The notes: generated from the sequence alone by a model not told the origin. 64,000 bases of DNA from an uncultured Verrucomicrobiota bacterium (GCA_903825435.1 CAIKAP010000081.1:13118-77117); one strand, 5' to 3'. Shown: positions 23,730 to 47,684, counted from the stretch's first letter. Numbers and translations: made by a program.

Positions 23730-24683
23730 CTAAAGTGAGCAAAGCCAGCGCGTCAAAGAGGCGATTTGGCCTTCGTCGGTAAGGTTGGCAGCATTTTCAA
23801 TCTTACCGGATTGAAGCTGCGACCAGATTTCTTTTGCCATTTTCGTTTCGATGGCCGCGCCAATGAAGAACGTGTGGGGTTTCTGTTTGTGCTTGGCGAA
23901 CGATGTTTGGATGCGATCCAGAGCGGTGCGGGCGGTCTTCCAGTGTTCGTCCGCACCGGCAGGGTCAATGCCGCCTTTCAATTCGCCGAGTGCGATGTAG
24001 GCTGCGGCGTTGCCGTATACCTGCCGGCACAGGGCTTCGGGGGCGGAGTTGAAAAGCGACAGATCAACGTTGTTGCGAAATAACGGCACCGTCAGGTTGT
24101 AGATCAAGGTTCTGGTCTTACCATTGATCTGCCAACTCAGGCCGCGGACGTGGAGTTCTATGTCGGCGTCATCTTCTGGCGTGTCCGACCAGACGTTGCT
24201 CTCACCGTGCAACCACCGGTAGCCGTTGCCCGCTAATTTGAGGTGCGCGATGATCGAGCGCGTAAGTTTGCACTGTGCCATGAAACCGCCAGCATTTCGC
24301 ATTGAGCCGCCCAACGTATCGCCGCGTGTGAGCAAGAATCGGAAGACAAGTTCCTCAACAAAATTCATACCGGCTGGTTCGAGAAAATTCGCGATTAGCT
24401 CTTCGACGGCTTTGCGCTTGTCGGCCTTTTGTAGGTGGTTCGCAGCCTTGTCGGAAATGCCGGCTGCCGTTACCAGTCCGGATTGGATTGCTGGAATCTT
24501 CAGGAGGTCAGACGGTCGCTGTGCTTGAGATGCAGCAGCCTTCAAGGCACGCGCCTGAACCACATAGGGAGTCGCTCGGCGGTTCTTCTCCAATGCGAGC
24601 GCGACAAAGCCGGCACGAACGGCTTCATAGGTGGTTTCAAGATCAGCCGCAGACTTCAGGTGGGAGCGATAGGGTTTGTTCAT
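23730..24683 (-). CDS. putative Type II restriction endonuclease (partner of adjacent methyltransferase)
   Basis: 317 aa, no recognised family; tail-to-head with the MTase 3 bp away; reduced GC; assignment is by context. Confidence 0.45.
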
Positions 24684-24686
24684 GGT

Positions 24687-26276
24687 TCAACGTTTCCGCC
24701 AGACGTACACGCATTTTCGCAGCGGGTCGCGTCCGTGTGCGCCCATTTGTTGGCTGCTGTTTCCTTTTCCGTTTGGCAAAACCAAAATGCTTTCGATGTT
24801 GAAGCCGAGTTGTGCGGCCATTTCCGAGAGAATAAGGTCCACCGCAATGCTCGCACCGGCATAGCGCACGTTGTCATTGACCATGATAAGCGGCGCGCCA
24901 CGTTTCAACACGCGGACACTCTCGGCAATGACACAGGCCATTTCGTAGAAGTACCCTCGCACCATACGAGGAATGCCGGTATTGTTCAGCAGGTCGAGTT
25001 CTCGCTGAGAATCCAGATACCGCAGGATGCGTTGAAGCAGGGGGAGTTCGTTTGCCACGGCCAGAGCGTGTTTCCACTTTGGATTGAGTGCAAGCATGTC
25101 CTTCTCACGGTTCTCGACGGTGCAACTTAACATAGCCTGTCGCAGTTTAACCAAGCCAGCCTCGTCCACGCCGAGCAACGCAAGTTCCAACGCGTATGTG
25201 CGGGTGTAGTCGTAGCGGTTGCAGTAGGGCGGCGATGTGAGAATACAGTCGTAAGCAGCAGCTTTGAACGTCGGCATGATCTCCAAACAAGAACCGCTGT
25301 GCAAAACCACGTCGGCGCGCGAGTGTGTCGTGAAAAACAAGTCTTCGGGAATTGTTGCTGCTCCGAGATCGTCAACGATCTCGCCGAGTTTGCCTTTGAT
25401 GGCTTCATCGAAAGGTTGAATCCGTCCTTTGTCGAAGATCTTCTTCCCGATACGACGACCGGAACGATAATCCCATCGCAGATACTGCCCATCCTTGCGC
25501 GTAAAACCGACCGACTCAAGAACGCAAAGCAATGCGAACCGTAGAATCGCCTTCACAACGTCGTTCTCATGCTCGGAAGCGGCCAAGTATCTCCCGATGG
25601 CTTTGACTGTCGCCGGTGGGTACGCCCCCTTCGTGATGCGTAGTTCGTTAATCGAACGGCATTCCTTGGAGTGTTGCCACGGTTGCCGAACCTTCCATCG
25701 TGTGAGCGTTTCGATGTCTGGAGGACGGAACTCCAAATCAATCATCTGCTTGGTTTCGATGATGGTCTGCCCGATTGGCAGAAGTTCGATTCCTTCCGCT
25801 TTCATTCCCATCGCGCCAGCCGCAAACAAGGCCGTGCCACTCCCTGCAAATGGATCGAGCAGGACGCCGGAGGACAAATGGAAACGATTCAGAAAATGCT
25901 CAACCAGTCCGGCGGAAAACGCTTCCTTGTATTTGTACCACCGGTAAACGGCGCGGCTTTTGTTCGCCTGAAAGCTCACGAGCGAGCGCGTCAGTTCGTT
26001 GGCGACAACGATCTTGTGTCGCCAACGACGCTCCAAATCAGAACTTAAGGCGTCAATCTCCCGCAGTGCCGGGGAATCCACAACCTCGCCGTTCTTGGGC
26101 TCGCGCGCATCATCTAAAACGGCCGGAGACGCCAGCGCAAAAGATACAGACTGCACCTTCCTTGGCGGCTGTTCCATCGTTTGGGTGCCGAGCGTTTCCT
26201 CACGCACACGGGGTGTGCGGCGCTTCTTCGGCAAATACGTGACTTGTTTCCTCGGCATCAGCGCGGAGTATGCCAA
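24687..26276 (-). CDS. alpha-class DNA methyltransferase (N4-cytosine or N6-adenine; motif I ... TRD ... SPPY)
   Basis: motif I LLDPFAGSGT about 280 aa before motif IV ILTSPPYCNRYDYT; true start may be internal (MEQPP). Confidence 0.75.
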   Translation of the reverse strand: MAYSALMPRKQVTYLPKKRRTPRVREETLGTQTMEQPPRKVQSVSFALASPAVLDDAREPKNGEVVDSPALREIDALSSDLERRWRHKIVVANELTRSLVSFQANKSRAVYRWYKYKEAFSAGLVEHFLNRFHLSSGVLLDPFAGSGTALFAAGAMGMKAEGIELLPIGQTIIETKQMIDLEFRPPDIETLTRWKVRQPWQHSKECRSINELRITKGAYPPATVKAIGRYLAASEHENDVVKAILRFALLCVLESVGFTRKDGQYLRWDYRSGRRIGKKIFDKGRIQPFDEAIKGKLGEIVDDLGAATIPEDLFFTTHSRADVVLHSGSCLEIMPTFKAAAYDCILTSPPYCNRYDYTRTYALELALLGVDEAGLVKLRQAMLSCTVENREKDMLALNPKWKHALAVANELPLLQRILRYLDSQRELDLLNNTGIPRMVRGYFYEMACVIAESVRVLKRGAPLIMVNDNVRYAGASIAVDLILSEMAAQLGFNIESILVLPNGKGNSSQQMGAHGRDPLRKCVYVWRKR

Positions 26277-36734: not shown

Positions 36735-39203
36735 ATGGTCAAAAGATTCTCCACGTTTAGGGCGGCTCTTGTTAAGTCCAAGACTGAAGAGGAAGTCAAA
36801 CATGCCTACGCCGAACATTTCGGATTGGATTATGACACGGAGTTTCGCCACGACCTGTATTCCCGGGAAGTCTTCTACGAATTCAAATTCTCGCGCAGTC
36901 TGCAAAAGCGGGAGTCTCGCGCTGCCGTCATCGCGCAAGTGTTGTATTACGTTCGGCAACTGCGTTTTGGTCACGCAGACAAGGTTGTTCCGCCAGTGAT
37001 TTGCATTGCGGAGGGAAAGCAGGCTTTTTTCACAGAGACGAACAAGTGGCGGAAGTTTTATAGCAACGACAGCAAATACGATTGGGAACTTGCTCCGAGC
37101 AATCCGGACAAGCAATTGATTGCAGACCTCGTCGCTTTTCCGGAGACGAACAGCATCAAGGTCTTTGATGTTCTCGATGAAGCCGAGTATGAGATGTTCA
37201 AGCAGCTTCTTGAACATCATCGCGCTACGCAGCTTGCGTTGGATTTCCGAGTTAAGAAGCTCATCACCGAGGACAATTTCGAGGAAGTTTTTGATTATTG
37301 GAACAAATGTTTCGGCGAAGACGTCCGCAACGGAACGAAACCTTCGCGTTACTTTTTGTGCGACATCCAGCAAGGCCGTTCGCTCTACGATCGGAAAGAA
37401 AATAAAGTCGTATTTTTTGTTGGCCCGGAGGAGAAGCGCGCGAAGAAAATCCTGCCGAAAGAATATGAGTGGTTTTGGTCGAACTACGAGAAAGTCACCA
37501 ATGCTGACACCGCGCGCAACATCCTTGCGAAAGTCGACCGTCTGACCGAGGAGCCGATCCGCCGATTCACGGGCGAGTTTTTTACTCCTGTTCCTTTTGC
37601 TCGGAAGGCTCATCAATATCTTGAAAGGGTTCTCGGACCGAAGTGGTGGACGAAGAATTATCGCCTTTGGGATATGGCAGCAGGCACGGGAAATCTGGAA
37701 TGGTTTCTCCCCGCCGATTCTTACAAGAGCATTTACCTTTCGACGCTCTATGAAGAGGACGTGCAGCATTGCAAGCGCGTGTTTCCGGGGGCGACCATTT
37801 TCCAGTATGATTATCTGAATGATGACGTTGACAGTGTTTTTGATCAGCAATTACTCTTTAAGCAGCCCCGCAAAATGCCCGAGAGTTTATTGCGAGATCT
37901 GGCAAATCCAAAAATCAAATGGATCGTTTTCCTCAACCCACCGTTTGCCACGTCGAATAAGACGGGTTTCACCGGCGAAAGCAAGAAAAGCGTGAGCGAC
38001 ACTAAAATCCGCCCGCTCATGCACGAGCAGGGCCTGGGCGAAGTCTCGCGTGAATTGTTCGCGCAATTTGCTTTTCGCATCCAGCGGGAGTTCAGCGGCA
38101 AGAAGGCGTTTCTCGGTCTTTTCTCCAAGCTCAAATATGTCAACGCCAATAACGACCAGAAATTCCGTGATAACGTTTTCCAGTTTTTATTCAAAGACGG
38201 CTTTATGTTTTCGTCGGCGACATTTTCAGGCACTCAGCCAACGAATTCATTTCCGGTCGGCTTCCTAATTTGGGATTTATCGCGCCGCAAAAAACTTGAA
38301 GAACAAAACATTGAAGTCGCCATCCTCGATGCCGACACGAGCAAAATTGGACGAAAACGAATCGTCGCCGAACATCGCTCGCGCTTCTTGAGCAAATGGA
38401 TTGACCGACCGCCAACCACGGAAATCTTTCCGCCGTTTAGCAGCGCAATTTCTGTGAATGACGGCAACACAGACATCCGCGACCGTGTCGCGAAAGGTTT
38501 TCTTGCTTCGTTCATGTGCAAGGGAAACGACGTGCAAAATCACAACAACGTCGCCTTGCTCTCCGGCCCGTATGTCAGCGCGGGCGCGTTGTCCGTCGTA
38601 CCGGACAACTTCGATAAGGCGATGGTCGTTCACGCCGTCCGCAGGAGCGTTCGCCAGGGTTGGATTAACGACCGTGACCAATTCCTCCAACCCAAAGAAC
38701 AACCGGGCGCGAGTTTTGTGGTGCGCTGCGTGGTCAGAAGTCTGTTCGCCAATTCCAATGAGACCGTTTCACTGCGGAACGTTGCGTACGAGGGGAACAC
38801 GTTTCAGGTCGTTAATCATTTTTTCCCATTCAAAGTTGCCGTACTAAAGAAGTGGGAAATTTCCGATTCCGACATCAAGCATTCACTGGCGCGCGACACC
38901 GACGACCGCTTCGTTGCTAACTGGCTGGCAAAACAAAAACTGGACGCATCCAGCCGGGAACTGTTGGAACTCGGTCGTGAAATCTACAAGGCGTTTTTCA
39001 AGAACTTCAAAGATCTGCCGACCGCAAAATACAAAATCGAGCATTGGGATGCCGGTTGGTGGCAAATCAAACGATGCCTCGTCGAAGCCGGCTTGGAGAA
39101 AGAGCGCTTTGCACGAGTTGAAGAAATCAAGAAACAGTTAAACGCCGAAATTAGTGAAACGGCCTTGCAGTTGGGGATGATTGCCACCGTAGATTTGTTC
39201 TGA
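36735..39203 (+). CDS. Type IIG-like restriction-modification enzyme (N-terminal nuclease-like region + gamma-class N6-adenine MTase + C-terminal TRD), horizontally acquired
   Basis: 822 aa; motif X GEFFTP, motif I WDMAAGTGNLEW, motif IV FLNPPFATSN; candidate D...EGK nuclease motif near residue 80; GC well below flanks. Confidence 0.7.
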   Translation: MVKRFSTFRAALVKSKTEEEVKHAYAEHFGLDYDTEFRHDLYSREVFYEFKFSRSLQKRESRAAVIAQVLYYVRQLRFGHADKVVPPVICIAEGKQAFFTETNKWRKFYSNDSKYDWELAPSNPDKQLIADLVAFPETNSIKVFDVLDEAEYEMFKQLLEHHRATQLALDFRVKKLITEDNFEEVFDYWNKCFGEDVRNGTKPSRYFLCDIQQGRSLYDRKENKVVFFVGPEEKRAKKILPKEYEWFWSNYEKVTNADTARNILAKVDRLTEEPIRRFTGEFFTPVPFARKAHQYLERVLGPKWWTKNYRLWDMAAGTGNLEWFLPADSYKSIYLSTLYEEDVQHCKRVFPGATIFQYDYLNDDVDSVFDQQLLFKQPRKMPESLLRDLANPKIKWIVFLNPPFATSNKTGFTGESKKSVSDTKIRPLMHEQGLGEVSRELFAQFAFRIQREFSGKKAFLGLFSKLKYVNANNDQKFRDNVFQFLFKDGFMFSSATFSGTQPTNSFPVGFLIWDLSRRKKLEEQNIEVAILDADTSKIGRKRIVAEHRSRFLSKWIDRPPTTEIFPPFSSAISVNDGNTDIRDRVAKGFLASFMCKGNDVQNHNNVALLSGPYVSAGALSVVPDNFDKAMVVHAVRRSVRQGWINDRDQFLQPKEQPGASFVVRCVVRSLFANSNETVSLRNVAYEGNTFQVVNHFFPFKVAVLKKWEISDSDIKHSLARDTDDRFVANWLAKQKLDASSRELLELGREIYKAFFKNFKDLPTAKYKIEHWDAGWWQIKRCLVEAGLEKERFARVEEIKKQLNAEISETALQLGMIATVDLF

Positions 39204-39293: not shown

Positions 39294-41084
39294 TTATTTC
39301 GGCGGGTGGAAGATCAGCCAGATGATCAAACCGAGAATCACCAGCAGCGGCAGGCCGATGGCGAGAATGACGGAGCGATAACGTCGCAGTGCAGATTGCA
39401 TCGGGGTGGCGGCTTGAAGCCGGTCGGCGCGGCCGGTGACGGTGACGAGTTCGGGGGAGTCGAGGTCAGCTTTCAACTCGGCGGCAGAGGCATAGCGGTC
39501 GTTGGGGTCGCGGGCCATCGCGTGCAAGATTATTTCTTCAACCTGTGGCGTGAGCGCCGGGTTGTGTTTGCGTGGCGCTTCGGGATCGCCGATGAGGCGG
39601 GCATTCATGACGACGAGCGGGTTGTCACCTTCGTACGGCGCGTGGCCGGTGAGCATTTCGTAGAGGATGGCGCCGAGCGAATAGATGTCGGTGCGGGCGT
39701 CGCCACGTTTGCCGCGGACTTGCTCGGGTGCCATGAAATCGGGCGTGCCGAGCGCGGGACTGAACCCGGCAAAGGTGATACGTTTTCCAGCCGCGCCGGC
39801 GATGCCGAAGTCCATGAGGCGGATCGTGCCGTCGGGACAGATCATGATGTTCTGCGGTTTCAGGTCGCGGTGGATGATGCCGTTTTGGTGGAGATAAATC
39901 AGGGCGTCGGTGACGCGGCTGGCAATGGAAAGGGCGTCGCGCGGTGGTAACGGGCGGACATTGGTGAGGAGGTGGGCGAGCGTGTAGCCGCGCAGGTATT
40001 CGGTGACGATGTACGGGCGGCTTTTGTTTTCGACTTTGATGAATTTGAGGATGAAAGGATGGTTGAGGCGGAGGCCGATGTCTTCTTCGCGCTCGAAGCG
40101 GGAGAAGAATCCGGGGTCGCTCTCGAACTGGAGGTGCGGGACTTTGACGGCGACGTATTGTTTGTCGTGGGCGAGGTCCTGCGCTTTGAAGATGGTGGCC
40201 ATGCCGCTGCGACTGATGGTCTCGGTGACGAGGAAACGGTTGTCGAGCGTCTGGCCGGGCTGGACTTCGGTGGTTGAGGCGGACGGCGCGGCGGGCGTGT
40301 GATAGACGGGGACGCCACGGTACGAACCGACTTCCTCGACGGCGTTGATCTGGACGACTTGGACGCTGACGTTATCTTCGGTGCCGCGTTGTTCCGCGAG
40401 GGCGACGAGCTGGCGACCGGCGGCGCTGGGATTGAACCGGCTGACGATGTCGCAGATCTCGCCGTCGGCGACACAACCGTGCAGGCCGTCGGTGCAGAGG
40501 ATGAGCCGGTCACCGGCGAGGAGATTGGTGTCGTCCACGTCAATGCGGATGGTCGGCTCCTGGCCGATGGTGCGCGTGAGCATGGAGCGGTTCTCGCTGG
40601 TGCGCGCGTCGGCCTCGTTGATGAGGCCGAACTTGCGCTGCATGGCGACGTAGGAATGATCGGTAGTGAGCTGGCGGATTTCGTTGCGGCGGGCGAGGTA
40701 GACGCGAGAGTCGCCGACGTTGCCGATGGTGGCGGTGTTGTGACGGAGGATGACGACGGCCAGCGTGGTGGCGATGCGGCTGCGACCGTGCTCCTTCATG
40801 CCCTCGTCGTACACGGCGAGGTTGGCGGCTTGAAAAATTTCGGTGATGAGTTGCTGCGGCGCGGTGCCGGGTTTGGCTTCGCGGAATATCTTGAGCGCAG
40901 CGTCAACGGCGAGCCGGCTGGCGACTTCGCCGCGCTGGAGGCCGCCGAGGCCGTCGGCAATGACGACGATACTGCCGCGCTCGCGTTTCTCGTCGAGTGA
41001 GTCGGGCTTCCAAAAACCGACGCTATCCTCGTTGTGGTCGCGAACGGGGCCTGCGGTGGTGAGTTCAGCGTAGGTCAGTTCCAT
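39294..41084 (-). CDS. bifunctional PP2C phosphatase / Hanks-type Ser/Thr protein kinase with C-terminal TM anchor
   Basis: N-terminal PP2C (NEDSVGF, IADGLGG, DGLHG), central kinase (VAVKV, HRDLKPQNIM, DFGIA, APE), C-terminal hydrophobic helix. Confidence 0.8.
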   Translation of the reverse strand: MELTYAELTTAGPVRDHNEDSVGFWKPDSLDEKRERGSIVVIADGLGGLQRGEVASRLAVDAALKIFREAKPGTAPQQLITEIFQAANLAVYDEGMKEHGRSRIATTLAVVILRHNTATIGNVGDSRVYLARRNEIRQLTTDHSYVAMQRKFGLINEADARTSENRSMLTRTIGQEPTIRIDVDDTNLLAGDRLILCTDGLHGCVADGEICDIVSRFNPSAAGRQLVALAEQRGTEDNVSVQVVQINAVEEVGSYRGVPVYHTPAAPSASTTEVQPGQTLDNRFLVTETISRSGMATIFKAQDLAHDKQYVAVKVPHLQFESDPGFFSRFEREEDIGLRLNHPFILKFIKVENKSRPYIVTEYLRGYTLAHLLTNVRPLPPRDALSIASRVTDALIYLHQNGIIHRDLKPQNIMICPDGTIRLMDFGIAGAAGKRITFAGFSPALGTPDFMAPEQVRGKRGDARTDIYSLGAILYEMLTGHAPYEGDNPLVVMNARLIGDPEAPRKHNPALTPQVEEIILHAMARDPNDRYASAAELKADLDSPELVTVTGRADRLQAATPMQSALRRYRSVILAIGLPLLVILGLIIWLIFHPPK

Positions 41085-41175: not shown

Positions 41176-43137
41176 TTAGGCCGTTACGGTGCCGGTCTCC
41201 GGCCGTTCGGTGAGGAGGATCTCCTTTCCTTTGGCTTTGCTGGCGCGCACGAAATACAACGCGCCGTACACGCCCCAGACACCGACGAAGCCGAGGGCGA
41301 TGAACGGTTCCTTCCAGCTCATGCCGGCGACAGTGAACGGTCCAACCAGGTAGAACAGCATGCAAGCCAGATTCGCCACCAATCCGAAGATCGGCACAAA
41401 CATGTGCTTGAATCCGTTGAAGGAGTGGTGCTCCTTGAACGCCACCATCGCGATCACGCAGGTGATCATGTAGAGCAGGAATGTGCCGAAGTTGCTGATC
41501 AACGTAACGATAACCAGCGTGTTCGGAAGTTTCGCGTAGGTTTCCGGCTTAAAGATACCGAAGCTGTACCAGATGCTATGATACTTCGCATCCAACGCCG
41601 CCGGTGTCGTTCCGCCGAGGTACACCAGCACCGTAGCGATGCCAACTACCGCCGAGATTGCCGCCAACGTCCAGATGGCGCGATACGGCGAGAGGGTCCG
41701 GCCATGCACCAGCCCGAAGTGCGACGGCACTTCCTCGTCGCGGCCCATTGCGTAGGTCACGCGAGCACCGGTGCTGAGGCAGCTTAACGTGGTGCCAACC
41801 AGCGCCAGGAACACCGTGGACGCTTGCACGAGCATGAACGCCCGGCCAGCCGAGTAGCTTCCAAACAGCCAGGTGCCGACAACGACCATCATGTCACCGA
41901 CGGGCGCGCCCGAGGCGCCGGCGTTGGGCATAGTGTAGCCGTTGTGCAGGAAGTAGTTCGCTGCGAAGTATTCGATGAAATAGCAGAAACAGCCTTGAAT
42001 CAGCAGCGACAACAGCACGGCCCGCGGAATGTCGCGCTTGGCATTCTTCGCTTCCTCACCCATCGCGGTGACGGACTCGAATCCGACGAGGATCAGAATC
42101 GCGATGCACGCTTGGATGAAGATGAAGTTGAACCCATGTGGTTTCACCACCGACGAGGCGTTCTCGTGGAAGTTGAAGGTGGTGACACCTTTGTCATCCT
42201 TCGTAACAGCTTCCTCAGCTTTGTAGCTGACGGTGAACGGCACTGGTTTGCCATCTTTCATCTCCGGATACGGATCGCCCTCGGACAAGCCCAGTCCCTT
42301 GGGCAACGTCGCGAGATCTTCCTTCGCTACGGCTTTGTCACCCATCACGAACACGGGCTTGCCGTCTTTGTCCATCGTCGGCTTACCGGCTGCATCCAAC
42401 ACCGGCGTCGGTTTGCCATCGGCGCCTTTGACTGGCTCTTGCGCGACGTTGTAACTGACGGCAATGCCGTTGGACAAGTGATAGCCTTGTGAGTCTTGCG
42501 GGTGGCGCATCCGGTACGCAATCGCGATCACCGAGAACACCAACAGCGCAGAGATCTGGACGACGTTGATCAACGCGTTCACGCCCGTCGTGCCGCCGAC
42601 ACCACGGAAGGCGATGTAGGCCACGCCGAACGCGAATATGACGCAGAACAGAATCATGAACAGCGGGCTGTTGTAGTTGCCCGCGAACGTGTCCGGGAAG
42701 AATTGATTCAACAGATAACCGCCCAGAATCGCCGTCACACCGACCATACATCCTGGATAGATCCAGTAGTACAAGTGCGACGCCCAGCCGGTAATGAATT
42801 TCGCCAGCCGCGCGAATTTGTAAGCCTTGGTCTTCGACAAGAACGCTTGTTCCGCGTACAAGTACGACGACCCGGCGCCCGGATAGAGCTTGGACAATTC
42901 CGCGTAGCTGATCGCCGTGGCGAAGCACAGAAGCAGCGCCAGCAAAATGCCGAACCACATCGCACAACCCGCCATCGGCGCGCCGTAAAGCGATTGCATC
43001 TGGAACGTCAGCCACAGGAACGCGCCCGGCGCAATCAGCGCCATGGCATTCGAGGTAAGCCCCGTCAATCCCAGCGTCGCCTTGCTGGAGGGCTTATCGG
43101 TTGATGTTGATGTTGTCGACATTTGAGTTTCCTCCAT
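41176..43137 (-). CDS. APC-family amino acid permease with large extracytoplasmic loop
   Basis: 653 aa, APC core motifs, ~100-aa Lys/Asp-rich insert. Confidence 0.65.
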   Translation of the reverse strand: MEETQMSTTSTSTDKPSSKATLGLTGLTSNAMALIAPGAFLWLTFQMQSLYGAPMAGCAMWFGILLALLLCFATAISYAELSKLYPGAGSSYLYAEQAFLSKTKAYKFARLAKFITGWASHLYYWIYPGCMVGVTAILGGYLLNQFFPDTFAGNYNSPLFMILFCVIFAFGVAYIAFRGVGGTTGVNALINVVQISALLVFSVIAIAYRMRHPQDSQGYHLSNGIAVSYNVAQEPVKGADGKPTPVLDAAGKPTMDKDGKPVFVMGDKAVAKEDLATLPKGLGLSEGDPYPEMKDGKPVPFTVSYKAEEAVTKDDKGVTTFNFHENASSVVKPHGFNFIFIQACIAILILVGFESVTAMGEEAKNAKRDIPRAVLLSLLIQGCFCYFIEYFAANYFLHNGYTMPNAGASGAPVGDMMVVVGTWLFGSYSAGRAFMLVQASTVFLALVGTTLSCLSTGARVTYAMGRDEEVPSHFGLVHGRTLSPYRAIWTLAAISAVVGIATVLVYLGGTTPAALDAKYHSIWYSFGIFKPETYAKLPNTLVIVTLISNFGTFLLYMITCVIAMVAFKEHHSFNGFKHMFVPIFGLVANLACMLFYLVGPFTVAGMSWKEPFIALGFVGVWGVYGALYFVRASKAKGKEILLTERPETGTVTA

Positions 43138-43287
43138 TTGTTGTTGGGTTCAGTTGTTTCGGTCGGTTGGCACATCAACACCTGCTGTGCCACGGCCGGA
43201 GCGATTCGCTCCAACTACGCAGGAAAGAAGCCTTTAGCCGGAATGTCGTGGCAACACGCGCCGCGGGGCTGTTCCATTTTGCTGCCC

Positions 43288-43310
43288 ACGCTGGTCAAAA
43301 GCCGACACGC
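43288..43310. promoter_or_regulatory. UAS-family-like site CACGCTGGTCAAAAGCCGACACGC
   Basis: resembles CGTGGTCAATTYCCGACAC copies; ~65 bp upstream of the MmeI-like gene. Confidence 0.35.
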
Positions 43311-43375
43311 GCCCGGCCGCCGACCGGTAAGGACAGGCTTGCCGCAGCCTGTGTGCGTTGGCATACTGCGCAGGC

Positions 43376-46075
43376 ATGAACGCTTCCGATTTCATCGCCA
43401 AATGGAAACCCGTTGACCTCAGCGAGCGTTCCGCCGCCCAGCAGCATTTCCTCGATCTCTGCGAACTCGTCGGCCATCCCAAGCCGGTCGAAGCCGACAA
43501 GACCGGCGAGTCCTTCTGTTTCGAGAGAGGCGCGGCGAAGCAAGACGGCGGCGACGGCTGGGCCGACGTGTGGAAGAAAGACTTCTTCGGCTGGGAGTAC
43601 AAAGGCAAACACAAAGACCTCGATGCCGCCTACGACCAGCTCCTGCAATACCGCGAATCCCTCGAAAACCCGCCGCTGCTGGTCGTCTGTGACATGGACC
43701 GGATCATCGTCCACACGAACTTTACCAGCACCAAGGCCCAGACCTTTGCCATCCCGCTCGCCGAACTCGACACGCCGCGCAGCCTCGAAATCCTTCGTTC
43801 CGTCTTCTTCACCCCGGACAAGTTGAAGCCCGGCGTCACCAGCGAGGCCATCACCACCGCCGCTGCCCAGCGCCTCGCCGACGTGGCGCTGAAAATGCGC
43901 GACCGGGGACTCGACCCGCAAGCCGTCGCCCATTTCCTCGACCGCATTGTCTTCTGCCTATTTGCCGAGGATGTGGGACTGCTCCCGCGCGACTTGTTCA
44001 GCCAGATTGTTACCAAGTGCGCGCATGACCCGAAACGCTTCGGCAAGTACGTCGCTGACCTGTTTGTCGCGATGGCCAACGGTGGCGAATGTCTCATGCA
44101 AGACATCCGCCATTTCAACGGCAACCTCTTCGATGAATCTCCCGTGCTCGAACTCACCGGCGACGAGATCGCCAGTGTTCAAGCCGCCGCCGAACTCGAC
44201 TGGAGCGAGGTCGATGCCTCCATCTTCGGCACGCTCTTCGAGCGCGGCATGGACCCCGCCAAGCGCTCCCAACTCGGCGCGCACTACACCAGCCGCGACG
44301 ACATCACCACCCTCGTCGAGCCGGTTGTCATGCAACCGCTCCGCCGCGAATGGACCGACGTGCGCGCGAAGATGGATAAACTCCTTGCCGGCGACGCCAA
44401 GAAAAACCGCGCCGCCGCCGAGAAACAATTCCTGCAATTCCTCCAACGGCTCCAAGGCGTCCGCATCCGCGACCTCGGCTTCACGCCCAGCTTCCCGCAG
44501 GTCAACCCGCAGCAACTTCACGGCATCGAAATCAACCTCTACGCTCACGACCTCGCCCAGATGACTTGCTGGATTGGCTACATCCAATGGCTCCGCGCCA
44601 ACGGTTACGGTTTCCCCGCCGAACCCATCCTGCGCCGCCTCGACAAAAACTTCCAATGCGCCGACGCCCTCACTGCCACCTGGCCCGCCGTGGACTTCAT
44701 CGTCAGCAACCCGCCATTCCTCGGCGGAAAGAAGATGCGCGCCGAACTCGGTGACGAGTACATGGACAAGCTTTTTGCCGACTGGGGTGACCGCGTGCCG
44801 CCGGAAGCGGACTTCTGTTGCTACTGGTTCGAGAAAGCGCGCGCCCATCTCGAAACTGGCAAGGTGCAGCGGGCCGGGCTGCTCGCCACGCAAGCCATTC
44901 GCGGCGGCGCAAACCGGCAAGTCCTCAAACGCATCAAGGATACCGGCGACATCTTCTTTGCCGAGAGCGACCGCCCGTGGATTCTCGACGGTGCCAACGT
45001 CCACGTCTCCATGATCGGCTTCGACAATGGCAGCGACAAGACGCGCATCCTCGACGGCCTGCCGGTGCCGACAATCAACGCCAACCTCACCGCCGTGGCA
45101 GACGTGACGCAAGCCAAGCCGGTCGCCGCGAATCTTAACCTCTCCTTCATGGGCACGACCAAGGGCGGCGCGTTCGACATTCCCGAGACGCTCGCGCTGG
45201 AACTTCTCCGCCAACCCAATCCGCATGGCCGCCCCAACTCCGACATTGTTGTGCCGTGGGTCAACGGCCTCGACGTGACGCGCCGCTCACGCGGCATGTG
45301 GATTATTGATTTCGGCGTCGGCTTGCCGGAACAGGAAGCCGCCAAGTACGAAGCACCTTTCGAATATGTTCGGCAACACGTGAAACCGGAACGCGAGAAG
45401 TCGCGCACAACAATCTCGGAATGGTGGTTGCAGGAACGACGGCGTGAAGATATGCGTATCGCACTTGCGCCTTTGCCGCGTTTCCTTTGCACGTGCCGGG
45501 TATCCAAGCACCGCATCTTCATCTGGCTCACCGCGCCGACGCAACCGGACAGCGCGACATTCGCCTTCGCCCGGGCCGACGACTACTTCTTCGGTGTCCT
45601 GCACTCACGGGCGCATGAAGTCTGGGCGCTGAAACTCGGCACGCGATTGGAGACGCGACCGCGCTACACGCCGACGACCTGTTTCGAGACGTTTCCATTT
45701 CCCGGCGCGACGCCGGAGCAACAAGCCGCGATTGCCGCCGCCGCGCAGGAACTCGACACGCTTCGCACCAACTGGCTGAATCCGCCCGAATGGACGCGCG
45801 AAGAAGTCTTGGAGTTTCCCGCCCGCGCCGATGGCCCGTGGGCGCGGTACGTCCAGAACGGCGTTGCCCGCTACCCGCGCCTCGTGCCGAAGGATGCCGA
45901 CTGCGCCAAGAAACTCGCCAAGCGCACGCTGACCAATCTCTACAACGAGCGTCCGACGTGGCTCGCCAACGCCCACGCGAAGTTGGATGCCGCCGTTTTC
46001 GCCGCCTACGGCTGGCCGGTGACGGTGACGGACGAGCAAATCCTGGAGAGATTGCTCGCCTTGAATTTGCAGTAA
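43376..46075 (+). CDS. MmeI-like large SAM-MTase-family protein (nuclease motif and NPPF present, glycine-rich SAM loop apparently absent)
   Basis: D-X9-EXK (DVWKKDFFGWEYK); GAHYTS motif X; SNPPFLGG motif IV; region corresponding to FFDPACGCGNFL replaced by RDLGFTPSFPQ; start taken at MNASDF. Confidence 0.65.
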   Translation: MNASDFIAKWKPVDLSERSAAQQHFLDLCELVGHPKPVEADKTGESFCFERGAAKQDGGDGWADVWKKDFFGWEYKGKHKDLDAAYDQLLQYRESLENPPLLVVCDMDRIIVHTNFTSTKAQTFAIPLAELDTPRSLEILRSVFFTPDKLKPGVTSEAITTAAAQRLADVALKMRDRGLDPQAVAHFLDRIVFCLFAEDVGLLPRDLFSQIVTKCAHDPKRFGKYVADLFVAMANGGECLMQDIRHFNGNLFDESPVLELTGDEIASVQAAAELDWSEVDASIFGTLFERGMDPAKRSQLGAHYTSRDDITTLVEPVVMQPLRREWTDVRAKMDKLLAGDAKKNRAAAEKQFLQFLQRLQGVRIRDLGFTPSFPQVNPQQLHGIEINLYAHDLAQMTCWIGYIQWLRANGYGFPAEPILRRLDKNFQCADALTATWPAVDFIVSNPPFLGGKKMRAELGDEYMDKLFADWGDRVPPEADFCCYWFEKARAHLETGKVQRAGLLATQAIRGGANRQVLKRIKDTGDIFFAESDRPWILDGANVHVSMIGFDNGSDKTRILDGLPVPTINANLTAVADVTQAKPVAANLNLSFMGTTKGGAFDIPETLALELLRQPNPHGRPNSDIVVPWVNGLDVTRRSRGMWIIDFGVGLPEQEAAKYEAPFEYVRQHVKPEREKSRTTISEWWLQERRREDMRIALAPLPRFLCTCRVSKHRIFIWLTAPTQPDSATFAFARADDYFFGVLHSRAHEVWALKLGTRLETRPRYTPTTCFETFPFPGATPEQQAAIAAAAQELDTLRTNWLNPPEWTREEVLEFPARADGPWARYVQNGVARYPRLVPKDADCAKKLAKRTLTNLYNERPTWLANAHAKLDAAVFAAYGWPVTVTDEQILERLLALNLQ

Positions 46076-46095
46076 TCGGCCTTCCGCTGACCGTT

Positions 46096-46386
46096 TTACC
46101 GCACTGGTTCGTGCGCTTGGCGGCCGGTCACCTTGGCGTAGGCACGGCAAAATGGGCAGGTGTGGATCTCAATCCTCTTGACCAACTCGAACGCGACGCC
46201 GCGTTGCTTCTTGCGGGCACGCCGACAGACGGGGCAGACCGCGCAGACTTTGGCAAGTTTCCGGTCAAGCGCCGTGATGGTGGTTTGGCTCATGGCGCGC
46301 AGCATGAACGTTCCGCGGTCGCCCGTAAAGCCGGAACCATCATCCATTCGGACACTGCCATTGACGAACGGGGGTATGTGCGGCAT
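46096..46386 (-). CDS. small putative zinc-ribbon protein
   Basis: CAVCPVC...HTCPFC (two CxxC pairs); 96-aa ORF, start uncertain; could be spurious. Confidence 0.3.
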   Translation of the reverse strand: MPHIPPFVNGSVRMDDGSGFTGDRGTFMLRAMSQTTITALDRKLAKVCAVCPVCRRARKKQRGVAFELVKRIEIHTCPFCRAYAKVTGRQAHEPVR

Positions 46387-46400
46387 CTGTTACAGCAGAA

Positions 46401-46913
46401 ATGAAAACCATCACGCCCACCGAATTGCTGAAACTTCTCGCCACGCAGCCGGACTTGTCGTTGATCGATGTCCGCACCCCGGTGGAATTCGCCGAGGTCC
46501 ATGTGCCGCAAGCGCGGAACGAACCGCTTGATGAGTTCAAGCCGCGCAACGAACCGGTTTATCTCCTCTGCCGTTCCGGCAACCGCGCCGCGAAGGCGGC
46601 GGCGAAATGTCCGCAGGGCATCGTGGTCGAGGGCGGCACGCTGGCATGGATTGCGGCGGGCCTACCGGTCACGCGTGGCACCACCAAAGTCATCAGCCTC
46701 GAACGGCAGGTCCGCATCGCAGCCGGCGCGTTGGTGCTGGCCGGCGTGATACTCGGCTGGCGCGTGCATCCCGGCTTCTACGGGCTGTCGGCATTCGTCG
46801 GCGCAGGGCTTGTGTTCGCCGGTATCACGGATTTCTGCGGCATGGGATTGTTCCTGGCAAGAATGCCGTGGAATCGCGCGGCCGGTGCGGCGGTTTCCTG
46901 CAAGCTGTCCTGA
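46401..46913 (+). CDS. rhodanese-domain protein fused to DUF2892-like membrane domain
   Basis: rhodanese active-site loop LLCRSGNRA; C-terminal two hydrophobic helices. Confidence 0.65.
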   Translation: MKTITPTELLKLLATQPDLSLIDVRTPVEFAEVHVPQARNEPLDEFKPRNEPVYLLCRSGNRAAKAAAKCPQGIVVEGGTLAWIAAGLPVTRGTTKVISLERQVRIAAGALVLAGVILGWRVHPGFYGLSAFVGAGLVFAGITDFCGMGLFLARMPWNRAAGAAVSCKLS

Positions 46914-46917
46914 CGTG

Positions 46918-46939
46918 ATGTTCCGGTTTTGTTCCGGCT
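46918..46939 (+). repeat. GTTCCGG element (ATGTTCCGGTTTTGTTCCGGCT)
   Basis: in the convergent gap between the rhodanese gene and the PP2C gene. Confidence 0.8.
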
Positions 46940-46949
46940 TCCGGGGCGA

Positions 46950-47684
46950 TCAGACTTCGACGACCTCAATCACTTGGGCGGAGGTGTTGTCGGTCGTGCT
47001 GCGCTGCATCGCCAACGCTATCAGTTGCCGGCAGGCCGCGACGGGATCGAGCTGGTGGACGATACGGGCGATTTCGAGGTCCGACACGCACCCGTGCAGG
47101 CCGTCGCTGCACAACACCACGCGGTCGCCAGCGAACACCGGGGCTTGATCCATGTCCACCCGGACTTGCGGGTCCACGCCGAGGCCACGGGTGATGAGGT
47201 GGCGTTGATCGCTCATGCGCGATTCAGCTTCGGTGATGTGGCCGAACCGCCGTTGCATGCCGACCAGTGAATGATCCACGCTGAGCTGTTTGATCATGCC
47301 GCGGTGAACCAGATAGACGCGCGAGTCGCCGACGTTGCCGACGACAATGTCGCGCGCGCCAAACACCGCCACGGCCATCGTCGTCGCGATGTGGCCGGGG
47401 CCATCGGGCTCGAACCCTTTGTCGTAAACGGCCCAGTTGGCGGCCTTGAACAGCTCCAACATGCGCTGGTGTCGTGATGCGTCGGAGGGCGCCTCGCGGA
47501 ACGAGCGCAGGCCGGTGGTGATGGCGAGCGAGCTGGCAATGTCGCCGGAGCCGAGGCTGCCGACGCCGTCGGCCAGCAGCGCAATCGCGCCGCGTTCGCC
47601 GCCGTCGTCCTGCCAGAAGCCGACGCTGTCCTGATTGGTCGGGCACGGTCCGGTCACGGAAAGTTCTGCGTAATTCAGTTTCAC
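46950..47684 (-). CDS. PP2C-family Ser/Thr phosphatase
   Basis: 244 aa; NQDSVGF, LADGVGS, DGLHG motifs; N-terminal region ~50% identical to the PP2C domain at 39294-41084. Confidence 0.8.
   Translation of the reverse strand: MKLNYAELSVTGPCPTNQDSVGFWQDDGGERGAIALLADGVGSLGSGDIASSLAITTGLRSFREAPSDASRHQRMLELFKAANWAVYDKGFEPDGPGHIATTMAVAVFGARDIVVGNVGDSRVYLVHRGMIKQLSVDHSLVGMQRRFGHITEAESRMSDQRHLITRGLGVDPQVRVDMDQAPVFAGDRVVLCSDGLHGCVSDLEIARIVHQLDPVAACRQLIALAMQRSTTDNTSAQVIEVVEV

What the first reader, a model, noticed from the sequence alone, without database searches (positions are those of the whole stretch)
43288..47684. Second MmeI-like paralog lacking the glycine-rich SAM-binding loop, with a zinc-ribbon ORF and rhodanese gene beside it and PP2C phosphatase genes on both sides
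The 900-aa protein keeps the D-X9-EXK nuclease motif, GAHYTS and the catalytic NPPF. Where family members have FFDPACGCGNFL and about 30 following residues, it has a short unrelated segment (IRDLGFTPSFPQVNPQQL). It may be methylation-dead yet nuclease-competent, or it may belong to a distinct MmeI-related family. A 96-aa double-CxxC zinc-ribbon ORF lies convergently next to it. A rhodanese/DUF2892 gene follows, and the block ends at a GTTCCGG element. PP2C phosphatase genes flank the block (39294-41084, a kinase fusion, and 46950-47684). A TGGTCAA-type UAS-like site lies 65 bp upstream of the gene. A nuclease with a crippled MTase would need another protection or regulatory mechanism, so this is a candidate for a non-canonical defence arrangement.
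Basis: partly seen in the sequence, partly recalled or inferred. Interest (0 to 1): 0.6.

Follow-up and report, generated by a model that had tools for sequence, protein, structure and literature searches.

The report
Restriction enzyme gene with deleted cofactor site
This is a stand-alone MmeI-like restriction-modification gene that has lost, through an 87-bp in-frame deletion, the loop and helix that bind its methyl-donor cofactor; it is most likely a recently disabled relic, and the genes beside it are unrelated housekeeping genes.

Summary
The gene at 43376-46075 (+, 899 aa) keeps D-X9-EXK, GAHYTS and NPPF but lacks MTase motif I.

It is not a separate family. Its relatives form a large Type IIG/MmeI-like subfamily (PADLOC PDLC03627, 861 bits). 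All 119 other top protein hits, all 85 related loci and 88 of 89 diverse full-length representatives keep DPAxGSGNFL. The window protein has a clean 29-aa gap that removes the Gly loop and helix alpha-A.

The same allele is present in at least 10 contigs from several freshwater metagenomes, so it is not an assembly artefact. Outside the gap there is no excess decay: 3 deviations at 222 conserved columns, against a family median of 2.

The neighbours are unlinked. None of the 85 homologue loci has a zinc-ribbon, rhodanese, PP2C or permease homologue. The zinc-ribbon ORF is a real 65-aa Cys-rich protein that elsewhere sits among redox and sulfur genes. The GTTCCGG and TGGTCAA motifs occur across the whole window.

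MmeI needs AdoMet to cleave, so the deletion most likely removed both activities. About 8% of family loci carry nonsense or frameshift lesions, so disabled copies are common. This is an ordinary, recently inactivated R-M gene. Interest is low.

The parts
43376..46075 (+). MmeI-like Type IIG/IIL restriction-modification gene, 899 aa, carrying an in-frame deletion of MTase motif I and helix alpha-A
   Evidence: Pfam MmeI_hel, MmeI_Mtase (partial), MmeI_TRD and MmeI_C. PADLOC REase_MTase_IIG PDLC03627, 861 bits. Best PDB match is MmeI 5HR4 by sequence and by fold.
43565..43603 (+). PD-(D/E)XK nuclease motif D64-X9-E74-X-K76 (DVWKKDFFGWEYK), intact
   Evidence: D64, E74 and K76 are invariant in the 51-sequence alignment.
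44276..44293 (+). MTase motif X, GAHYTS, intact
   Evidence: Motif assignment follows MmeI G312AHYTS (PMC2582602).
44468..44479 (+). Deletion junction R365-D366|L367-G368. 87 bp (29 codons: PAGGSGNFLYVTLQKLLDLEKEVNDYLAA in relatives) are missing here.
   Evidence: Protein alignments. DNA comparison with L002, L003 and L005. AF2 pLDDT is below 50 at residues 365-376, against 88-93 in the intact relative.
44708..44719 (+). MTase catalytic motif IV, NPPF, intact
43292..43298 (+). TGGTCAA site 78 nt upstream of the ATG. It is part of a longer recurrent intergenic motif (gcTGGTCAA..cgacac) and may be a host promoter or operator element.
   Evidence: 14 copies against 6.4 expected in the window. Not specific to this gene.
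46096..46293 (-). Conserved 65-aa Cys-rich (C-x2-C-x2-C...C-x2-C, His) small protein, tail-to-tail with the MmeI-like gene and functionally unlinked to it
   Evidence: 79 homologues. Alignment A4 shows 5 invariant Cys and a conserved start at M19. Homologue contexts are KatG/Fur, DUF134/NifX-like, Lactamase_B/Sulf_transp and rhodanese-YgaP.
46401..46913 (+). Rhodanese (CRSGNR active-site loop) fused to a YgaP-like transmembrane domain, divergent from the Cys-rich gene
   Evidence: Pfam PF00581 and PF11127. Sequence.
46920..46937 (+). GTTCCGG-N4-GTTCCGG element, one of 11 copies of a window-wide motif
46950..47684 (-). Stand-alone PP2C phosphatase, not linked to the MmeI-like gene
   Evidence: Pfam PP2C_2 and PP2C. 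50% identical to the PP2C domain of the 39294-41084 protein. Absent from all homologue loci.
41176..43137 (-). APC-family amino-acid permease, divergent upstream neighbour, not linked
   Evidence: Pfam. Relatives are Verrucomicrobiota permeases. Their loci are not syntenic with this one.
39294..41084 (-). PP2C-Ser/Thr kinase fusion, not linked
   Evidence: Pfam. PADLOC gives only generic kinase matches.

Best explanation
The gene is a stand-alone, single-polypeptide Type IIG/IIL (MmeI-like) restriction-modification gene in a freshwater Verrucomicrobiota genome. An 87-bp in-frame deletion has excised the AdoMet-binding glycine loop (motif I) and the following Rossmann helix alpha-A.

Shown: the deletion, its uniqueness within the family, its presence in every sampled copy of this population, and the absence of any conserved partner gene.

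Inferred: without motif I the protein cannot bind AdoMet and so cannot methylate. In MmeI, cleavage requires AdoMet and AdoMet enhances specific DNA binding. In the related BREX PglX/BrxX, site binding uses AdoMet as cofactor. The nuclease activity is therefore most likely lost too. The gene is then a harmless, recently inactivated relic rather than an armed nuclease. The intact reading frame and the undecayed remainder reflect how recent the lesion is. The zinc-ribbon, rhodanese and PP2C genes are ordinary chromosomal neighbours.
For: 1. A 29-aa gap lies exactly over motif I and helix alpha-A. In the intact relative P0004 the deleted segment corresponds to residues 367-395, which are the Gly loop plus helix H373-395.
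2. Motif I is present in 119 of 119 other top hits, in all 85 related loci and in 88 of 89 diverse full-length representatives.
3. The identical allele, in the same synteny, occurs in at least 10 contigs from several samples and assemblers.
4. There is no excess decay. The protein deviates at 3 of 222 columns that are at least 97% conserved, and 2 of the 3 are at the junction. The family median is 2. MTase-domain identity to the family is 0.65 against a family mean of 0.66.
5. With the same alignment depth, AF2 confidence falls from pLDDT 84.0 / pTM 0.70 in the intact relative to 76.6 / 0.53. The junction and the MTase core score below 50-70.
6. MmeI endonuclease activity requires Mg and AdoMet, and motif I is the AdoMet site (PMC2582602; PMC4833311). 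BrxX DNA binding uses SAM as cofactor (abstract of PMC11842806).
7. Natural inactivation is common. 7 of about 82 family loci carry a TAG nonsense or a frameshift. Disrupted MmeI-family ORFs are documented in PMC2731913.
8. [quoted passage not shown]
Against: The 2.7-kb reading frame is fully open, and all other catalytic and conserved residues (D-X9-EXK, GAHYTS, E385, NPPF) are intact. This is equally what continued selection would produce.

A host-type upstream motif is present, so the gene may be transcribed.

A second family member, P0324, also carries in-frame deletions confined to the MTase core with little other decay. That could hint at a recurrent, tolerated or even favoured MTase-less form.

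AdoMet dependence of cleavage is established for MmeI, not for this subfamily. Some Type IIG enzymes are only stimulated by AdoMet (my knowledge of Eco57I; the Tth111II abstract).
Confidence: 0.7

Rival explanations
1. Methylation-dead but nuclease-competent enzyme. The protein still recognises and cuts DNA, and the host is protected by another methyltransferase or by regulation through the neighbouring genes.
For: The nuclease motif, spacer, TRD and C-terminal domain are intact and undecayed. Other MTases exist in the window: an MmeI-type gene at 3223-6039 and a BsoBI-type MTase at 24687-26276.
Against: MmeI cleavage requires AdoMet. The paralogue is only 24% identical, so shared specificity is implausible. 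No neighbour co-occurs with family members. AF2 loses confidence in the MTase core, which also forms the adenine-flipping and DNA-binding cleft.
Confidence: 0.06
2. Neofunctionalised or domesticated derivative. The MTase-less protein is kept by selection for another role, for example sequence-specific DNA binding or regulation, or as a partner or decoy.
For: No decay outside the gap. A second independent MTase-core deletion variant, P0324, also shows little decay. The allele is fixed in all sampled contigs.
Against: Only two such variants were found among hundreds of relatives. Both could simply be recent. The sampled alleles have identical DNA, so there is no evidence of persistence through divergence. 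About 8% of family loci are plainly broken, which shows ordinary turnover. In relatives, specific DNA binding depends on AdoMet.
Confidence: 0.08
3. A distinct MmeI-related family that never had, or systematically lacks, the FxGxG loop.
For: Pfam MmeI_Mtase matches only from profile position 58.
Against: Relatives 60-74% identical all have DPAxGSGNFL. 88 of 89 diverse representatives have it. The gap is flanked on both sides by residues that align with the family.
Confidence: 0.01
4. Assembly or sequencing artefact: the deletion is not in the organism's DNA.
For: None beyond the general risk with metagenome assemblies.
Against: Identical gene DNA occurs in 5 further contigs from different samples and assemblers. 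Two more alleles of 899 aa (P0001, P0123) also exist.
Confidence: 0.01
5. The MTase is still functional, with AdoMet bound through the remaining motifs (X, II, IV) and the new RDLGFTP loop.
For: Motif II (E385), motif IV and motif X are intact. The 16-residue linker could physically bridge beta-1 to beta-2.
Against: The Gly loop and helix alpha-A are conserved elements of the AdoMet site in this enzyme class. No relative tolerates their loss. The junction and motif X regions have pLDDT below 50.
Confidence: 0.03

Closest known systems
MmeI family (Type IIL / IIG single-polypeptide restriction-modification enzymes; PDB 5HR4)
   Same: Five-domain order: PD-(D/E)XK nuclease with D-X9-EXK, helical spacer, gamma-class N6A MTase (motifs X and IV), TRD and C-terminal helices. 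MmeI is the best sequence and fold match in the PDB. The gene stands alone with no conserved neighbours (PMC2731913). Naturally disrupted alleles are known.
   Different: Only 21-24% identical to MmeI and to the canonical MmeI-type paralogue in the window. It belongs to a separate subfamily (PADLOC PDLC03627 rather than PDLC03598). Motif I and helix alpha-A are deleted. The documented natural lesions were point disruptions that could be repaired, and this one is not a point disruption.
PADLOC REase_MTase_IIG model PDLC03627 subfamily (annotated 'YeeA' / 'class I SAM-dependent DNA methyltransferase' in PVC, Acidobacteriota and other MAGs)
   Same: 60-74% identity over the full length. Same domain order and same conserved motifs outside the gap.
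   Different: The window protein lacks 29 aa that every other examined member retains. The only exception is P0324, which has larger MTase-core deletions.
BREX PglX/BrxX and DISARM DrmMI methyltransferases
   Same: Homologous MTase, TRD and C-terminal module. PADLOC DrmMI matches reach 230 bits over the C-terminal half. Foldseek matches PglX/BrxX structures.
   Different: It has an N-terminal PD-(D/E)XK nuclease. No PglZ, BrxC, BrxL or DrmA/B/C genes are nearby. The PglX models do not hit the window protein.

Membership tests
MmeI family (Type IIL R-M) | N-terminal PD-(D/E)XK motif aligned with MmeI D70-X9-E80-X-K82 | tested here: met
   DVWKKDFFGWEYK at aa 64-76. It aligns with MmeI in the phmmer alignment.
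MmeI family (Type IIL R-M) | Similarity over the entire length of MmeI (spacer, MTase, TRD, C-terminal domains) | tested here: met
   Pfam MmeI_hel, MmeI_Mtase and MmeI_TRD pass the cut-off. MmeI_C is below it, and MmeI_N is not detected in this protein but is in some relatives. 5HR4 is the top hit by sequence (E = 7.8e-46) and by Foldseek (E = 8e-27).
MmeI family (Type IIL R-M) | Gamma-class N6A MTase motifs X (GAHYTS), I (FDPACGxGNFL) and IV (NPPF) all present | tested here: not met
   Motifs X and IV are present. Motif I is deleted. The protein is therefore a defective derivative, not a functional member.
MmeI family (Type IIL R-M) | No separate MTase and no conserved flanking genes | tested here: met
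   No recurrent neighbour in 85 loci. None of the window's neighbours recurs.
MmeI family (Type IIL R-M) | AdoMet-dependent cleavage about 20/18 nt from an asymmetric site, with single-strand methylation | not testable with these tools
   Needs biochemistry.
PADLOC REase_MTase_IIG subfamily PDLC03627 | Full-length match to the subfamily HMM | tested here: met
   861 bits, split into 3 stretches by the deletion. The intact relative P0009 scores 890 bits.
BREX (PglX) / Pgl system | PglX accompanied by PglZ, BrxC/PglY and BrxL or PglW in one locus | tested here: not met
   The neighbours are a permease, PP2C-kinase, a Cys-rich protein, rhodanese, PP2C and a DAP dehydrogenase-like protein. The kinase matches PglW at only 79 bits, against 274 bits for the top kinase model, PD-T4-6. 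No PglX model hits the protein.
Type ISP (LlaGI/LlaBIII-like) | SF2 helicase-like ATPase domain between the nuclease and the MTase | tested here: not met
   Only the non-ATPase MmeI_hel spacer is found, with no helicase or ATPase Pfam domain.
DISARM DrmMI | MTase encoded with DrmA, DrmB and DrmC | tested here: not met
   Only partial DrmMI HMM matches to the C-terminal half. No Drm genes among the neighbours.

The most novel reading that the evidence does not exclude
MTase-core-deleted MmeI-like proteins are a recurrent form kept by selection. They would retain the nuclease, spacer and TRD and act without AdoMet, for example as a methylation-independent DNA binder, a regulator, or a nuclease held in check by other means. 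There are two independent cases: this gene, and P0324 with larger in-frame deletions. Neither has decayed elsewhere.
Probability: 0.08. Interest if true: 0.5.

Novelty: new member of a known kind. Interest (0 to 1): 0.15.

Why it matters
It matters little beyond annotation. The case shows that an open, well-conserved 'class I SAM-dependent DNA methyltransferase / Type IIG' ORF can be functionally dead because a single structural element is missing. Defence-system and methylome predictions should check for motif I rather than rely on an HMM hit. It also adds a natural example to the known turnover of MmeI-family genes. If the protein were shown to be active, it would be a natural separation-of-function variant, useful for working out how AdoMet binding licenses cleavage in Type IIL enzymes.

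Tried and rejected
1. dN/dS among deletion-bearing alleles. The gene DNA is identical in 5 contigs, P0123 differs by one residue, and P0001 differs only in a 64-nt patch, so there is no power.
2. Dating the deletion from a sister locus. The closest zinc-ribbon homologues (80-87% identical) and permease homologues (81-83% identical) lie in non-syntenic contexts with no MmeI-like gene.
3. Finding the source genome in GTDB representatives. The best hit is 64% identical, so the genome is not in that collection.
4. A spare motif-I cassette elsewhere in the window (shufflon or phase-variation idea). Only the canonical paralogue's own motif I was found.
5. Mobile-element boundaries. No target-site duplication or terminal inverted repeats flank the gene.
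6. Promoter and terminator scan of 43100-47000. Nothing was found, and the host's promoter type may not be covered.
7. NCBIfam. No family hit for the protein.
8. A Pgl/BREX link through the kinase. Rejected because the match is generic kinase similarity and the other components are absent.
9. Apparent clustering of natural lesions in the MTase domain. My first screen could only see lesions between motifs X and IV. The unbiased rescan shows stops at about aa 125, 311, 450, 454 and 759, plus two frameshifts.
Full report
**What is at the coordinates**

The long ORF runs from TTG 43358 or ATG 43376 to 46075 on the + strand. Relatives align from the ATG, so the gene is 43376-46075 and encodes 899 aa.

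Pfam finds MmeI_hel, MmeI_Mtase, MmeI_TRD and a sub-threshold MmeI_C. The MTase match covers only profile positions 58-257. Three motifs are present:
- D64-X9-E74-X-K76, the nuclease motif.
- GAHYTS at aa 301-306, MTase motif X.
- NPPF at aa 445-448, MTase motif IV.

The best PDB match by sequence and by predicted fold is MmeI, 5HR4. The best PADLOC model is REase_MTase_IIG PDLC03627 at 861 bits. That model differs from the one matching the canonical MmeI-type paralogue at 3223-6039 (PDLC03598). The paralogue is only 24% identical to this protein.

**The missing loop is a lineage-specific deletion, not a family trait**

A search of 5.8 billion proteins returned the protein itself and then thousands of relatives. 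The best relatives are 60-69% identical by BLASTP but 944-1044 aa long. Alignment shows a clean 29-column gap in the window protein. Every relative has (V/I)LDPA(G/C)GSGNFLYVTLQKLLDLEKEVNDYLAA at that position. Both flanks (…FLERLxxVR and GFTPxFPxVxPxQLxxIE…) align normally.

Motif I is present in every relative examined, with one exception:
- All 119 other top hits have it.
- All 85 loci that encode relatives have it. Two carry the variant DPACGSANF.
- 88 of 89 full-length representatives have it, drawn from a library of 1.84 billion clusters at 50% identity.

The distance from motif X to motif IV is 144 aa here, against a minimum of 173 and a median of 198 in relatives.

At the DNA level the junction reads CGC ATC CGC GAC|CTC GGC TTC ACG. 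Relatives carry 87 more bases at that point. One 87-bp deletion plus a CAC-to-CTC change would explain this. So would two slippage deletions between short repeats, since CTCGACC occurs twice at the right places in relative L003. These scenarios cannot be told apart and are inference only.

**The deletion is real and fixed in the sampled population**

The window protein is identical to P0122, which is found on 9 contigs. Two further 899-aa alleles exist (P0001 and P0123). The gene DNA is identical to the window in five other contigs from different samples and assemblers. All show the same order: permease, MmeI-like gene, Cys-rich ORF, rhodanese, PP2C.

**What the deletion removes**

I ran AlphaFold2 on the window protein and on the intact relative P0004, using the same 51-sequence alignment.
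- P0004: pLDDT 84.0 and pTM 0.70. Strand beta-1 is at 364-366, helix alpha-A at 373-395 and strand beta-2 at 410-413, all at about 84-93.
- Window protein: pLDDT 76.6 and pTM 0.53. There is no alpha-A helix, pLDDT is below 50 at residues 365-376 and 289-302, and the MTase core is generally weakened.

The deleted residues correspond to P0004 367-395, which are the glycine loop plus the whole of helix alpha-A. In MmeI, motif I (aa 360-370) is the AdoMet-binding site (PMC2582602; PMC4833311).

**There is no sign of further decay**

At 222 columns that are at least 97% conserved among 118-119 relatives, the window protein has 3 substitutions, and 2 of them are at the junction. The family median is 2. 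Its identity to the family in each domain equals the family's own average, for example 0.65 against 0.66 in the MTase domain. Either the lesion is recent or the protein is still constrained. The sampled alleles are too similar for a dN/dS test, and no syntenic sister locus was found.

**The neighbours are not partners**

None of the 85 homologue loci, each with up to 6-10 kb of flanking sequence, encodes a homologue of the Cys-rich ORF, the rhodanese, either PP2C protein, the permease or the other flanking ORFs. There were only two weak kinase hits. Clustering all flanking ORFs found no recurrent neighbour at all. This matches the published statement for nuclease-containing MmeI homologues (PMC2731913).

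- The Cys-rich ORF is a real gene. It has 79 homologues, a conserved start that gives 65 aa (46096-46293), five invariant Cys and one invariant His. Its homologues lie beside KatG/Fur, DUF134/NifX-like, Lactamase_B/sulfur-transport, CMD and rhodanese-YgaP genes, and never beside an MmeI-like gene. It probably belongs with the adjacent, divergently transcribed rhodanese-YgaP gene.
- The two PP2C domains are 50% identical paralogues. The kinase gives only generic kinase matches in PADLOC.
- The host is a Verrucomicrobiota bacterium, judging by named relatives of the permease.
- The GTTCCGG element is one of 11 copies of atGTTCCGG-N3-TGTTCCGGc spread over the window. The TGGTCAA site belongs to a recurrent intergenic motif. 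Neither is specific to this block.

**Most likely mechanism**

MmeI endonuclease activity requires Mg and AdoMet, and AdoMet enhances its specific DNA binding (PMC2582602). In BREX, DNA-site binding by the related BrxX uses SAM as cofactor (abstract of PMC11842806). By analogy, loss of the AdoMet site removes methylation and cleavage together. That would explain why the allele is tolerated.

Inactivated copies are ordinary in this family. 7 of about 82 distinct loci carry a single TAG nonsense or a frameshift, at positions spread along the gene. Naturally disrupted MmeI-family genes are documented (PMC2731913). I therefore read this gene as a recently disabled stand-alone Type IIG/IIL R-M gene, with confidence about 0.7.

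**What remains open**

One representative, P0324 (770 aa, 72% identical), has larger in-frame deletions, again confined to the MTase core, and also shows little other decay. Two independent MTase-less but otherwise intact variants leave a small chance that such forms are retained for an AdoMet-independent role. AdoMet dependence has not been shown for this subfamily. Biochemistry on the native and repaired alleles, read-level polymorphism, expression data and the methylome would settle this.

**Verdict**

This is a defective new member of a known kind, and interest is low.

Noticed in passing
window 2711, 20322, 26307, 39273, 46920, 52826, 63664 (+); 56927, 36544, 35061, 29746 (-): A roughly 21-nt motif, atGTTCCGG-N3-TGTTCCGGc, made of two half-sites 11 nt apart in direct repeat. 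It occurs 11 times in 64 kb. GTTCCGG has 37 hits against 14.7 +/- 3.5 expected. Some copies lie between convergent gene ends and others apparently inside long ORFs. It could be a binding site for a tandem-dimer regulator or a genome-wide repeat. Its function is unknown.
   Followed up: partly
window 16481, 18433, 29776, 36675, 43292 (+), 51754 (-): TGGTCAA sites share a longer intergenic consensus, (a/c)gcgTGGTCAA(a/t)..cgacac. This may be a host promoter or operator element. There are 14 copies against 6.4 expected.
   Followed up: partly
window 23730-26276 (-): A BsoBI-like Type II R-M pair. The endonuclease is at 23730-24683 (PF09194, E = 1.8e-150) and an N6/N4 MTase at 24687-26276. The segment has low GC (0.547). 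With the intact MmeI-type gene at 3223-6039, the window holds three R-M loci.
   Followed up: partly
P0324 (library representative, 770 aa): A second subfamily member with in-frame deletions confined to the MTase core. It has lost everything between GAQYTSR and ADALFTDWP, plus about 50 aa after NPPFLG. The nuclease, TRD and C-terminus are intact, and it has only 3 deviations at 222 conserved columns. Its sequence is closest to P0003 and P0005, so the event looks independent of the window's deletion. Its contig could not be fetched.
   Followed up: partly
L027, L052, L077, L067, L068 (single stop codons; TAG confirmed in L027, L052, L077); L066, L075 (frameshifts): About 8% of family loci in species-representative genomes are disrupted by one nonsense or frameshift lesion. 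Positions are about aa 125, 311, 450, 454 and 759. Some may be MAG sequencing errors.
   Followed up: partly
L001 5803-5866 (gene nt 2220-2283), corresponding to window 45595-45658: The P0001 allele differs from the window gene by 16 nt, all inside a 64-nt patch (GVLQSRFHEVWALK, as in relative P0007). This is either a recombination tract or an assembly chimera with another family member in the same metagenome.
   Followed up: no
window 46096-46293 (-): A 65-aa protein family with no Pfam domain and the pattern VCxNCPVCRRAR...CPFCRAYE.VYGRK.HE (5 invariant Cys and 1 His). It recurs next to oxidative-stress and sulfur genes: KatG/Fur, Lactamase_B with YeeE/YedE-type transporters, DUF134/NifX-like, and rhodanese-YgaP. 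It may be a small metal- or redox-sensing protein.
   Followed up: partly
window 39294-41084 and 46950-47684 (both -): The PP2C domain of the kinase fusion and the stand-alone PP2C are 50% identical paralogues (E = 3e-79). They bracket the block of permease, MmeI-like gene, Cys-rich ORF and rhodanese.
   Followed up: no
window 36735-39203 (+): An 822-aa ORF with no significant Pfam or PADLOC match, called as a gene in the sister contigs.
   Followed up: no
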